Assembly (NCBI RefSeq): GCF_009914755.1
Contig: NC_060927.1
Strand: one strand, 5' to 3'
DNA length: 64,000 bases
Source of the DNA: the human T2T-CHM13v2.0 reference genome, Homo sapiens
The notes below the pieces were generated by a model. It was not told the origin of the DNA. It made no database searches and worked only from the letters and a program-made list of their open reading frames with translations. The stretch's first letter is position 1. Every line of letters begins with the position of its first letter. The translations under genes and the position numbers were made by a program. Shown piece after piece: positions 11,112-51,122 of the stretch.

Positions 11112-11195
11112 CTGAAAGAATGGCAAATTGTCTGTGAAGTTGTTCTATTATCTCCACCGCCATCAGGGGTCTGACTTCCTGCTGCATAATTTCAT
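11112..11195 (-). CDS. MCF2L2: MCF2L2 coding exon 2
   Basis: 84 nt; acceptor atttgtgcAG, donor CAG|GTaagg. Phase 1-1. Encodes (D)EIMQQEVRPLMAVEIIEQLHRQFAILS(G). Confidence 0.96.
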
Positions 11196-17452: not shown

Positions 17453-18229
17453 TCAGTATCTCACACCCTCCCCCCATGAACATATGTATTAAAGAACACT
17501 TGGCTGCCCTGGGCACTCATGGTCCAGTGCTCAATGCTGGCAGGTGCACATAGCCCTGGAAATCTACTCTTTTAACGCTGCTCAGACCCAGGGAAATACT
17601 CCACAGCTCTTGGTTTATGTCCTCAAAAGAAAATGTGACCGCATCCAAATGCTAGGGTGGTTTGTGGGTTGCACCACTGCTGACATCAGGGACACACACT
17701 GCTTCAGAGTGCAGGGAGGATTTGAACTGTGGAAGTGCTTAGATAAGAGAAAAAATAAATGAATTAACTTGAGAAATCCTTCCTCTCACATAGCATGATG
17801 CTGTAGATTCTTTGGTAATGACATAGCCAGTCCAATAGAACCAAGCATCAATGCTCTTAGTTTTCTTTTGGTAATTCATCATGCAAATATACTCAAAGTT
17901 TGAACTTGTTAAACACAATTACATTTTACTTAGATCACATTGACTTTAGATGACTGTTCTCAACAGTTCAAAGTGAAAATCTCAGCTATACCAACACTGA
18001 TTTTGCTGACATGAAGGCAAGAAAAAATATATTTTATGGAATAAGTAATGACTTATGGATTCTGTATATATTTATTATTAATTCACATATCACTGGCCCA
18101 TAAACAGTGAAGCCTATTGGCTGGAAATGGTCTGTGGACAAAACAATAATAATAATTATTATTATTGTATATTCAGTATACATGCAATAATATGGAATAG
18201 TATGATGAGATGAGAAAGGAGGTTAGACA

Positions 18230-21319: not shown

Positions 21320-21766
21320 ACAAAAGCAAGATATGTTGGTAATTTTAAAAAATAGAAAATACAACCAAACAAAATTAAGTAAAACTTATTCCTTCAACCA
21401 AAATTAAGTAGTTATCTCATTGGTATACAATATTCAGTGCACATATATGTATGTGCAGACATATGTAGGCTTTCAAAACAAGCTCATACTTACACGTTCC
21501 ATATTATAACCTAATTTTTCAGAAAATGTTTTTATTATGAATCTACCTATGAACATATCAATAAATGACCATCTACAATATTGTAATAGCTAATTAATGC
21601 TTTTTTTAAAAAAGTCATTTTAAAACTTCTTCACAAAAAACTTGAGACGGTACTGCAAAGTAAGATTTTTTTTAATGTAAAATTTCTTCGCTTTAAATCA
21701 TTATGCTAAGAATGAGGAGAAATAAAACACATACATAAAACACATGCATCCTTGCTTCCACACTAC

Positions 21767-21947
21767 CTTTTTTTGCCATATATTCCAGCCTGATGCAACT
21801 TCCTACTAAACGGTGATAGGCCCTCATCTCTGCCTCTGTTATCCGCACCAAGGTGTAAGGTGAGTATCTAGGATCTTGCTGCTCACACTTCATGCACCAG
21901 ACCACGACTGGATTCCAGGAAACGGCGCCACCTCGCTCGCTCTCCAT
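21767..21947 (-). CDS. MCF2L2: Candidate alternative first coding exon of MCF2L2 (60 aa)
   Basis: Strong Kozak gaaATGG; 181 nt = 60 codons + 1 with no stop; donor AAG|GTagtg in phase 1, in frame with exon 2. Unique sequence with retained CpGs. Confidence 0.6.
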
Positions 21948-22416
21948 TTCTCTCTAGGCACTGCACTCACACAGAAATGTTCAATCCTTTCTCCCGGTTA
22001 ATCTCCCTGAAGTTCACTCGAGGTCATTTCGTGGCCGAGAGTTGATCCTTTTGATTGGTGAGTGCTCACAGGATTACAGCCCCAGCAGATTATCAGACGT
22101 ACTCATTTAGAAACAAAAGGAAAACTGGGGGATGACAGCGAGGGACATCCTAGCCTCAATGAGAATCAGAATTTTTTTTTTTTAGAAGTATCACATCATC
22201 ACAAGACACAAATCAGGCCACCAGATACTTAAAATAAAACGATAGGGATAAACTTTGTAAAGGATGATTTAAAAAAAAAATAAAAACTTATTCCAGGCCA
22301 CAATTCTACCCTCCTTCTCTTCTAACCTCTCTAGGCTGCCAGTAATAAAATCCAGAGGCTTAACGCTGCAGCCAGTAAGATTCACTATCTGAGCAGGCAC
22401 CTTAAATTGACACGGC

Positions 22417-48769: not shown

Positions 48770-51122
<2,353 letters not shown>

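What the first reader, a model, noticed from the sequence alone, without database searches (positions are those of the whole stretch)
21767..22140. Intact 60-codon candidate alternative first exon with a CxxC motif and its own putative promoter
Seen: strong Kozak ATG at 21947 and an open frame MESERGGAVSWNPVVVWCMKCEQQDPRYSPYTLVRITEAEMRAYHRLVGSCIRLEYMAKK. The phase-1 donor AAG|GTagtg falls where the sequence turns AT-rich and intron-like. CpGs are retained locally in a CpG-poor intron, and a CCAAT lies at 22058-22054. Inference: an MCF2L2 isoform with a different N-terminus (CMKC plus a likely helix) that could alter localisation or autoinhibition. It differs from the canonical N-terminus I recall; I cannot check whether it is annotated.
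Basis: partly seen in the sequence, partly recalled or inferred. Interest (0 to 1): 0.8.

Follow-up and report, generated by a model that had tools for sequence, protein, structure and literature searches.

The report
Ancient alternative first exon of MCF2L2
The open frame is a real alternative first coding exon of the RhoGEF gene MCF2L2, conserved from birds and turtles to humans and already in many species' gene models, so it is a sound but largely known feature whose function nobody has described.

Summary
These are ATG 21947 with G at -3 and +4, 60 codons plus one base, donor AAG|GTAGTG after 21767, phase 1 matching exon 2, CCAAT 22058-22054, and local CpG retention.

Sequence alone does not lift this above chance. 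The strand has 41 ORFs of at least 60 aa, and intron 1 holds 3 equivalent Kozak ATG-ORF-phase-1-donor candidates.

Comparison settles it. The 60-mer is the N-terminus of predicted MCF2L2 isoforms in macaque (95% identical), squirrel, bats, a turtle and very many birds. Of the 119 long proteins fetched, 117 join it to the exon-2 peptide at exactly the predicted junction. Conservation falls at the donor and shows helical periodicity. C18, C21 and C51 and the core VRITExEM are near-invariant, and residues 38-59 fold as a confident helix.

It is therefore a second "front peptide" exon ahead of the CRAL_TRIO/Sec14 domain, as described for KALRN, TRIO and MCF2L.

I could not check human transcripts or the other six RefSeq models. 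The exon is known to databases but undescribed in the papers searched. The peptide's function is inferred, not shown.

The parts
21767..21947 (-). Coding part of the alternative first exon: ATG 21947-21945, then 60 codons plus 1 base (phase 1). It encodes the 60-aa front peptide.
   Evidence: Orthologous N-termini. tblastn alignments of bird-type peptides end at 21768.
21765..21766 (-). GT of the splice donor AAG|GTAGTG
   Evidence: It matches 6 of 9 consensus positions. In 14 read-through ORFs, conservation falls from 0.84 to 0.445 here, and Gly61 (G|GT) is kept in 13 of 14.
21957..21959 (-). In-frame TAG that closes the frame upstream, making 21947 the first possible in-frame ATG in human
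21948..22140 (-). Presumed 5'UTR and core promoter, including CCAAT at 22058-22054. The transcription start is not located. Short upstream ORFs start at 22148, 22106 and 22027, which matter only if transcription begins further upstream.
   Evidence: CpG observed/expected 0.50-0.60. The promoter role is inferred, not shown.
21806..22307 (.). RefSeq functional element labelled 'enhancer', overlapping the start of the exon and its upstream flank
   Evidence: Hub annotation supplied with the finding, not tested here. The stretch is single-copy in the genome.
11112..11195 (-). Common exon 2 of MCF2L2, the acceptor for both first exons. Its peptide follows the front peptide in the orthologous models.
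   Evidence: Hub annotation
49318..49393 (-). Coding part of the canonical first exon (25 aa, phase 1), which the alternative exon would replace
   Evidence: Hub annotation
17618..17698 (-). Further candidate exon between the alternative first exon and exon 2: acceptor cag|TGTGTG, stop TAA at 17617-17615. A colobus model splices to it from a donor 11 nt beyond 21767, giving a short 92-aa product.
   Evidence: tblastn of the P0007 tail: 93% identity, E 2.4e-14. The P0020 tail matches weakly (61.5% identity, E 1.2). Sequence.

Best explanation
This is a genuine and very old alternative first coding exon of MCF2L2. It lies in intron 1, 27.4 kb downstream of the canonical first exon.

Transcription starting just upstream would produce an mRNA translated from ATG 21947 and spliced from the donor after 21767 to exon 2 at 11195. 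The canonical 25 N-terminal residues are replaced by a 60-residue 'front peptide' directly ahead of the CRAL_TRIO (Sec14) domain. The rest of the RhoGEF is unchanged. The start region overlaps a RefSeq 'enhancer' and retains CpGs.

The peptide has three parts. The first is a variable, probably disordered head (residues 1-16). The second is a conserved Cys-x-x-Cys(-Gly) knuckle (C18, C21). The third is an invariant core, VRITExEM..Y, leading into a 22-residue helix (38-59) that carries the invariant C51.

By analogy with the alternative first exons of KALRN and the N-terminal isoforms of ARHGEF25, I infer that this peptide changes how the Sec14 end of the protein meets membranes or the rest of the protein. 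It could do this through a small metal-stabilised fold (C18, C21, C51 plus usually H45) or through S-acylated cysteines.

Shown: the exon, its frame, the junction in orthologues, and protein-type conservation. Inferred: use in human tissue, the promoter, and the biochemical role.
For: **Orthologous gene models.** The human 60-mer matches predicted full-length MCF2L2 proteins. These are Macaca fascicularis isoform X4 (95% identity, 100% coverage), Ictidomys X4 (60%, 100% coverage) and Glossophaga (73%). In each the peptide runs straight into the exon-2 peptide.

**Breadth.** A profile of 21 diverse front peptides found 188 proteins at E<=1e-3 among 5192 candidates. The 120 listed are almost all MCF2L2 isoforms of birds (Gallus, Columba, Anas, Taeniopygia, Struthio and others), plus a turtle and bats.

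**Junction.** Of the 119 fetched proteins of at least 400 aa, 117 carry the core motif at the N-terminus. In all 117 the exon-2 motif lies exactly 27 residues after it, the same spacing as the human join of 21767 to 11195.

**Exhaustive search.** A search of 1.84 billion representatives gave 32 hits at E<=1e-3 and 22 at E<=1e-10. All but three of the 32 carry the motif.

**Exon boundary.** In 14 ORFs that read through the donor, mean column identity is 0.60 for residues 1-16, 0.84 for 17-60 and 0.445 for 61-84, with differing stop positions.

**Protein-type constraint.** Among 60 distinct 44-residue segments, I36, E40, M41 and C51 are invariant. C18 is kept in 0.90 and C21 in 0.92. Conservation along residues 36-60 has 100-degree periodicity, equalled by 151 of 10000 shuffles. 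A one-residue in-frame insertion occurs in colobus.

**Structure.** AlphaFold2 with 17 sequences gives a helix at 38-59 with pLDDT about 93. The helix is amphipathic, with a hydrophobic moment of 0.5-0.64.

**Position.** Pfam places CRAL_TRIO_2 at 97-228 of the macaque isoform, so the peptide precedes that domain.

**Origin.** The locus is single-copy, and the peptide has no paralogue in the same genome (next best E 4.5). No Rfam family matches.

**Precedent.** KALRN has four alternative first exons ahead of a CRAL_TRIO domain that begins in exon 2, and they change lipid binding and localisation. TRIO and MCF2L are said to have alternative front peptides too (PMC9823006, passages and section 13 read). 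The palmitoylated N-terminal cysteines of p63RhoGEF are absent from its GEFT variant (PMC3722567, passages read).
Against: **No human expression data.** I saw no human transcript, CAGE or peptide evidence. Only one of the seven human RefSeq transcripts was shown to me, and it does not use this exon.

**No human hit.** No human full-length protein with this N-terminus appeared as a cluster representative. Clustering at 90% identity could hide one.

**Predictions, not experiments.** Nearly all the supporting orthologues are automatic gene predictions, which need an open frame to be called. Species where the frame is broken would be invisible.

**Start codon.** Human lacks the start Met used by 114 of the 117 models (Val at residue 14) and depends on an upstream ATG.

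**Weak donor.** It matches 6 of 9 consensus positions. The sequence-only composite is not above chance.

**Non-productive transcripts.** Some models from this exon splice elsewhere, or read into the intron, and give 65-126 aa products.

**The fourth zinc ligand is not conserved.** H45 is present in 0.85 of the 60 distinct segments and is Tyr in 8. No Pfam or PDB match reaches significance.

**No orthologous DNA.** Synonymous and non-synonymous change could not be compared.
Confidence: 0.8

Rival explanations
1. The exon is real in other amniotes but is a relic in humans. The frame survives, yet the human gene is transcribed only from the upstream CpG-island promoter, and the patch now acts only as an intronic enhancer.
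For: The RefSeq-selected human transcript skips the exon, and RefSeq labels 21806-22307 an enhancer (hub annotation). Human and other primates have lost the Met used as the start in 114 of 117 models. The donor is mediocre. No paper was found describing a human isoform.
Against: Human keeps every invariant residue of the family: C18, C21, T32, V34-E38, E40, M41, Y44, C51, L54, E55 and A58. It also keeps an intact ATG in a strong context, an intact GT donor and the right phase. Only 3 of 60 residues differ from macaque, whose annotation does include the isoform. CpGs are retained.
Confidence: 0.12
2. The main products from this start site are short or non-productive. These would be an unspliced 84-aa small ORF, or transcripts spliced to the extra exon at about 17.7 kb that stop early. 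The exon would then serve mainly as a regulatory or decoy transcript start rather than an MCF2L2 N-terminus.
For: Fourteen of the first 17 database entries are 65-126 aa ORFs that run past the donor. They include UniProt 'Uncharacterized protein' entries for colobus, lemur, beaver, porpoise, ground squirrel, pig and meerkat. The colobus model splices to a second exon that is present in the human window at 17698-17618 and ends in a stop.
Against: The tails past the donor are poorly conserved (0.445) and end at different places, so selection acts on residues 17-60 only. 117 full-length models join the exon to exon 2. A short ORF would not explain a boundary of conservation lying exactly at a phase-1 donor compatible with exon 2.
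Confidence: 0.1
3. The patch is a conserved non-coding regulatory element, and the open frame is fortuitous. Prediction pipelines have repeatedly mistaken it for coding sequence.
For: RefSeq labels it an enhancer (hub). ORFs of this length are common in the window. No known protein family matches. All supporting proteins are predictions.
Against: The frame is kept from birds and a turtle to primates, and the only indels are in frame. Conservation stops at the donor and shows alpha-helical periodicity. Replacements are conservative (K/R, I/V/L, S/A/G, F/Y) at the variable core positions. The same junction to exon 2 appears in 117 of 119 models.
Confidence: 0.04

Closest known systems
Alternative first exons ('front peptides', Ex1A-Ex1D) of KALRN, and the alternative front peptides of TRIO and MCF2L, in the Sec14-spectrin (SecSR) RhoGEFs (PMC9823006; passages and section 13 read)
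   Same: The gene belongs to the same subfamily. Each first exon has its own ATG and encodes a short peptide spliced to a common exon 2 that leads into the CRAL_TRIO domain. The canonical MCF2L2 first exon encodes 25 residues, as KALRN Ex1B does. The alternative peptide ends in an amphipathic helix, as reported for Kalirin Ex1C and MCF2L isoforms 4 and 9.
   Different: That paper names alternative front peptides for TRIO and MCF2L. For MCF2L2 it says only that a front peptide exists. The MCF2L2 peptide is longer (60 aa in human, 47 aa in most species), has no detectable sequence relative in the paralogues, and carries a conserved Cys triad. Its conserved helix face includes acidic residues (E40, E55), which suits a specific docking surface better than a basic lipid-binding helix. 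No lipid-binding or localisation data exist.
ARHGEF25 isoforms p63RhoGEF and GEFT: N-terminal cysteines are palmitoylated and place p63RhoGEF at the plasma membrane, while GEFT lacks them and is cytoplasmic (PMC3722567; abstract and passages read)
   Same: It is a Dbl-family RhoGEF whose N-terminal variants differ by a cysteine-bearing segment. The cysteines sit among basic residues close to the N-terminus; in most species the MCF2L2 peptide starts M-A-S-(R/W)-C-x-(K/R)-C.
   Different: There is no sequence similarity. Acylation of the MCF2L2 cysteines has not been tested. C51 lies within a helix, which is unusual for an acylation site.
CxxCG zinc knuckles, such as the zinc-binding form of ribosomal protein uS14 (type Z)
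   Same: The (R)-C-x-x-C-G motif is C-P-x-C-G in the most divergent members. There is weak profile similarity to uS14 type Z (E 0.015) and sub-threshold hits of single members to zinc-finger families (best E 0.0033).
   Different: No hit reaches significance. Only three cysteines are conserved, and the candidate fourth ligand H45 is Tyr in 8 of 60 distinct segments. AlphaFold2 gives low confidence for residues 11-30.

Membership tests
Alternative first (front-peptide) exon of a Sec14-spectrin RhoGEF, as in KALRN Ex1A-D | Own start codon and an open frame ending at a donor in the same phase as the canonical first exon, so that it joins the common exon 2 in frame | tested here: met
   ATG 21947, 181 nt, phase 1. 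The canonical exon-1 CDS is 76 nt, also phase 1. Both give Asp at the split codon.
Alternative first (front-peptide) exon of a Sec14-spectrin RhoGEF, as in KALRN Ex1A-D | The peptide is found joined to exon 2 in gene products | tested here: met
   Met in orthologues only: 117 of 119 fetched proteins of at least 400 aa have the junction. They include macaque isoform X4. All are predicted models. No human product was seen.
Alternative first (front-peptide) exon of a Sec14-spectrin RhoGEF, as in KALRN Ex1A-D | The peptide lies directly ahead of the CRAL_TRIO domain | tested here: met
   Pfam CRAL_TRIO_2 covers residues 97-228 of macaque P0001 and 84-214 of chicken P0048.
Alternative first (front-peptide) exon of a Sec14-spectrin RhoGEF, as in KALRN Ex1A-D | Own promoter and transcription start site, with tissue-specific use | not testable with these tools
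   Only indirect signs are available: CpG observed/expected 0.60 against 0.226, a CCAAT 107-111 nt upstream of the ATG, and a RefSeq 'enhancer' at 21806-22307 (hub). No CAGE or RNA-seq data were at hand.
Alternative first (front-peptide) exon of a Sec14-spectrin RhoGEF, as in KALRN Ex1A-D | The peptide changes lipid binding or localisation of the Sec14 end | not tested
   This needs experiments. A preprint reports that MCF2L2 localisation depends on which end carries the tag (10.1101/354316, one passage read); the isoform used was not seen.
Protein-coding exon under purifying selection | Frame preserved across distant species, with conservation bounded by the splice site | tested here: met
   The codon-position test could not be run because no orthologous DNA is held.
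Four-ligand zinc-binding motif (C2HC or C4) | Four invariant metal ligands | tested here: not met
   C18 is kept in 0.90, C21 in 0.92 and C51 in 1.0, but H45 only in 0.85, with Tyr in 8 of 60 distinct segments. Some of those have Cys at position 55 instead, and others have neither.
N-terminal S-acylation (palmitoylation) motif, as in p63RhoGEF | Cysteines near the N-terminus among basic or hydrophobic residues, shown to be acylated | tested here: inconclusive
   The sequence context fits: Cys at residues 5 and 8 of the 47-aa form, flanked by R/K. The modification cannot be tested here.
Interspersed repeat or transposon-derived ORF | Multiple copies in the genome | tested here: not met
   Window 21650-22350 is single-copy in the assembly, apart from an 89-nt intronic tail that matches chrX at 85%. 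The peptide has no second locus. The tool skips very common words, so this is not absolute.

The most novel reading that the evidence does not exclude
The exon encodes the ancestral amniote N-terminus of MCF2L2: a small lineage-specific module made of a CxxCG knuckle and a helix with an invariant cysteine. The module either binds a metal or is S-acylated, and it sets the membrane targeting or autoinhibition of this little-studied RhoGEF. The human reference isoform, and so probably most experiments to date, would then lack the conserved regulatory head of the protein.
Probability: 0.25. Interest if true: 0.6.

Novelty: already known. Interest (0 to 1): 0.33.

Why it matters
MCF2L2 is a poorly studied RhoGEF that recurs in association studies. 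Passages read here link the locus to a Parkinson's-disease risk region and to CSF ceramide levels (PMC12772658), and to type 2 diabetes (PMC5499878).

In its relatives Kalirin and ARHGEF25, the choice of N-terminus decides where the enzyme sits and how active it is. If human cells use this exon, there is a second MCF2L2 protein with a conserved cysteine-bearing head that the reference isoform lacks.

That would matter for three things: choosing cDNAs for functional work, interpreting variants in intron 1, and reading the RefSeq 'enhancer' at this spot as a possible promoter.

As a sequence feature it is ordinary, because public gene models in many species already contain it.

Tried and rejected
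**Structure in context.** AlphaFold2 of the macaque N-terminus (residues 1-264) with 31 sequences failed, with mean pLDDT 38.9. It says nothing about how the peptide sits on the Sec14 domain.

**Complex prediction.** I ran front peptide residues 17-60 against residues 61-264. The tool gave no verdict (score 0.00 against a mark of 0.34, the partner's fold was uncertain, and alignments were not used). This is evidence neither for nor against binding.

**Known families.** Pfam on the human ORF gave only HNH_5 at E 0.13. Pfam on 21 members gave only sub-threshold hits in single members. A PDB profile search gave a best hit of uS14 type Z at E 0.015. Rfam gave two chance-level hits outside the exon. 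I rejected all of these as memberships.

**Repeat origin.** Rejected.

**C2HC zinc site.** Considered and downgraded, because H45 is not conserved.

**Literature.**
- 'MCF2L2' + 'isoform': 40 papers. I saw the listing of 20 and read passages in four (PMC12772658, PMC5499878, PMC9823006, 10.1101/354316). A fifth, PMC13600778, showed no occurrence in its held text. None describes this exon.
- 'MCF2L2' + 'alternative promoter': 1 paper, about SOX2OT promoters and irrelevant.
- 'MCF2L2' + 'alternative first exon': 0 papers.
- 'MCF2L2' + 'transcript variant': 2 papers, seen as listing only.
- 'MCF2L2' + 'N-terminal' + 'Sec14': 4 papers.
- Four peptide words from the 60-mer: 0 papers.

**Papers I could not see.** The Kalirin promoter paper PMC5274606 is not held and is cited only through PMC9823006. 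Supplementary Fig. 16b of PMC9823006, which shows the MCF2L2 front peptide, was not seen and may bear on which N-terminus those authors used.

Full report
**What is in the sequence.**

On the minus strand an ATG lies at 21947-21945 in the context GAGAAATGG, with G at -3 and G at +4. An in-frame TAG lies three codons upstream, so no longer human frame is possible. The frame is open for 84 codons, to 21693.

After 60 codons and one extra base the sequence reads AAAG|GTAGTG. The exon would therefore end at 21767 in phase 1. The coding part of the canonical first exon (49393-49318, 76 nt) is also phase 1. A join to exon 2 at 11195 stays in frame, and the split codon is Asp in both versions.

The CCAAT at 22058-22054 is there. 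GC rises to 0.46-0.49 over 21700-22149 and falls to 0.26-0.33 just downstream of the donor. The stretch 21767-22140 holds 13 CpGs, an observed/expected ratio of 0.60 against 0.226 for intron 1. Only 1.5% of equally long windows in the intron hold as many.

**Is that more than chance?**

Not by itself. The window holds 41 minus-strand and 33 plus-strand ATG-ORFs of at least 60 aa, and 14 minus-strand ORFs of at least 84 aa. Within intron 1, three different ATGs combine a purine at -3 with G at +4, at least 60 open codons and a phase-1 GT matching at least 6 of 9 consensus positions. Without the Kozak condition there are 15. The donor here matches 6 of 9 positions. Only the CpG retention stands out. 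The case has to rest on comparison with other species.

**Comparison.**

A word-indexed search of about 5.8 billion proteins with the 60-mer, restricted to longer proteins, returned 5 hits from 7 candidates:
- MCF2L2 isoform X4 of Macaca fascicularis (95% identity over the whole 60-mer).
- MCF2L2 isoform X4 of the thirteen-lined ground squirrel (60%, full coverage).
- An MCF2L2 isoform of the bat Glossophaga (73%).
- Two short unnamed or uncharacterised ORFs.

In all three full-length proteins the peptide runs directly into the peptide of exon 2.

The search among proteins of similar length returned 12 of 12 candidates. They include UniProt 'Uncharacterized protein' entries from colobus, lemur, beaver, porpoise, ground squirrel and pig. 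All of them read on past the donor.

A profile of 17 such peptides, run against all 1.84 billion cluster representatives, found 32 proteins at E<=1e-3 and 22 at E<=1e-10. All but three of the 32 carry the motif. The hits include a more divergent group, and one quail fragment (P0024) that links the peptide to MCF2L2 exons 2-3 through an extra exon.

A profile of 21 diverse members then found 188 proteins at E<=1e-3 among 5192 candidates. The 120 listed are almost all MCF2L2 isoforms of birds, with a turtle and two further bats. In several species the isoform carrying the peptide is X1 or the only annotated protein.

Of the 119 fetched proteins of at least 400 aa, 117 carry the core motif at the N-terminus with the exon-2 motif exactly 27 residues later. 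The remaining two are unrelated proteins.

**Signs of protein-level constraint.**

- **Boundary at the donor.** In 14 read-through ORFs, mean column identity is 0.60 for residues 1-16, 0.84 for 17-60 and 0.445 for 61-84. The tails carry indels and stops at different places, so conservation ends at the proposed donor.
- **Invariant residues.** Among 60 distinct 44-residue segments, I36, E40, M41 and C51 never change. V34, R35 and Y44 change in one or two segments. C18 and C21 are kept in 0.90 and 0.92. The variable positions swap K/R, I/L/V, A/S/G and F/Y.
- **Helical periodicity.** Conservation along residues 36-60 is periodic at 100 degrees per residue, a value reached by 151 of 10000 shuffles. 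That pattern fits a helix with one constrained face and does not fit a DNA element.
- **In-frame indel.** The colobus sequence has a one-residue in-frame insertion.

I could not compare codon positions, because no orthologous DNA is held in the collections available.

**Anatomy of the peptide.**

AlphaFold2 with the 17-sequence alignment gives mean pLDDT 70.8. Residues 1-8 score below 50, residues 11-30 about 62, and a helix at 38-59 about 93. The helix is amphipathic, with a hydrophobic moment of 0.5-0.64.

Most species start translation at a Met equivalent to human residue 14, giving a 47-residue peptide beginning M-A-S-(R/W)-C-x-(K/R)-C-G (114 of 117 models). Human, Old World monkeys and lemur have Val there and depend on the upstream ATG. 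The squirrels share that upstream ATG.

Pfam places the CRAL_TRIO_2 domain at 97-228 of the macaque isoform. The peptide therefore sits directly ahead of the Sec14-like domain.

**What it is not.**

- The 701 bases around the exon are single-copy in the assembly, apart from an 89-nt intronic tail that matches chrX at 85%.
- The peptide has no second locus in the genome; the next best match has E 4.5. The paralogues MCF2 and MCF2L therefore have no detectable counterpart.
- No Rfam family matches.
- No Pfam family or PDB chain matches significantly. The best hits are zinc-knuckle look-alikes: uS14 type Z at E 0.015, and I-TevI_ZnF in one member at E 0.0033.

**How it most likely works.**

The closest described system is the set of alternative first exons of KALRN. 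Four promoters supply different 'front peptides' to a common exon 2, where the CRAL_TRIO domain begins. These peptides change lipid binding and localisation. The same paper says TRIO and MCF2L have alternative front peptides, and that MCF2L2 has a front peptide (PMC9823006, passages and section 13 read).

A second precedent is ARHGEF25. Its p63RhoGEF form is held at the plasma membrane by palmitoylated N-terminal cysteines that the GEFT variant lacks (PMC3722567, passages read).

A preprint reports that MCF2L2 localisation depends on which end carries the fluorescent tag (10.1101/354316, one passage read).

I therefore read this exon as a second MCF2L2 front peptide, driven by an internal start site. 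Its conserved helix face includes E40 and E55, so it looks like a docking surface rather than a basic lipid-binding helix. Together with the cysteine triad, it would modulate the Sec14 end of the protein.

Whether the cysteines bind a metal or are acylated is open. A strict four-ligand zinc site fails, because H45 is Tyr in 8 of 60 distinct segments. These functional steps are inference.

**What remains unshown.**

I saw no human transcript, CAGE or peptide evidence, and I saw only one of the seven human RefSeq transcripts. Almost all orthologous evidence consists of automatic predictions, which can only be made where the frame is open.

Some models starting at this exon do not reach exon 2. 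The colobus model uses a donor 11 nt further on (human has GC there) and splices to a second exon, present in the window at 17698-17618, which ends in a stop.

Attempts to model the peptide together with the Sec14 domain gave nothing usable.

**Novelty and verdict.**

As a sequence feature it is already in public databases, so it is not new. I found no description of it in the papers searched. Its depth of conservation and the cysteine triad are worth a note to anyone working on MCF2L2.

I put 0.8 on the statement that it is a genuine alternative first coding exon of MCF2L2. Within that, I put about three in four on it being used in human tissue.

Noticed in passing
window 17618-17698 (minus strand): Candidate extra exon between the alternative first exon and exon 2. 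It has an acceptor cag|TGTGTG and an open frame ending in TAA at 17617-17615. The tail of a colobus gene model matches it at 93% identity (E 2.4e-14), and a second species matches weakly (61.5% identity, E 1.2). Joined from the 21767 donor it shifts frame and stops early, so it would give a short or decay-prone transcript.
   Followed up: partly
window 21750-21756 (minus strand): The colobus model implies a second donor 11 nt beyond the main one, with the exon ending at 21756. Human reads GAA|GCAAGG there, which would be a GC donor rather than GT.
   Followed up: no
window 49394-50068 (minus strand): The whole 642-nt 5'UTR of the canonical first exon is open in frame with the canonical ATG (214 codons without a stop; GC 0.67; 64 CpGs). 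An in-frame ATG lies at 50068, 33 nt upstream of the annotated transcript start, which produces the 333-aa ORF 50068-49067. The translation is Arg/Pro/Gly-rich, so this is probably a by-product of CpG-island composition.
   Followed up: partly
window 21906-21908 (minus strand; human residue 14): The start Met used by 114 of 117 orthologous models is Val in human, Old World monkeys and lemur. These depend on the upstream ATG at 21947, which squirrels share. The start of this isoform has therefore shifted 13 codons upstream.
   Followed up: partly
window 21650-21738: An 89-nt stretch of the intron just downstream of the exon matches chrX (G000:C23:120402794-120402878) at 85%. It is probably a small repeat fragment.
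   Followed up: no
proteins P0033-P0037, P0041, P0042 (unnamed representatives): These are more divergent copies of the peptide, with E from 5e-8 to 6e-4. Three have a C-P-x-C-G knuckle, and several lack His at position 45. Their species are not given, so the exon may be older than amniotes.
   Followed up: no
MCF2L2 gene as a whole: Papers read in passing say that mice and several other rodents lack MCF2L2 (PMC5499878, passages read). Squirrel and beaver nevertheless keep this exon.
   Followed up: no
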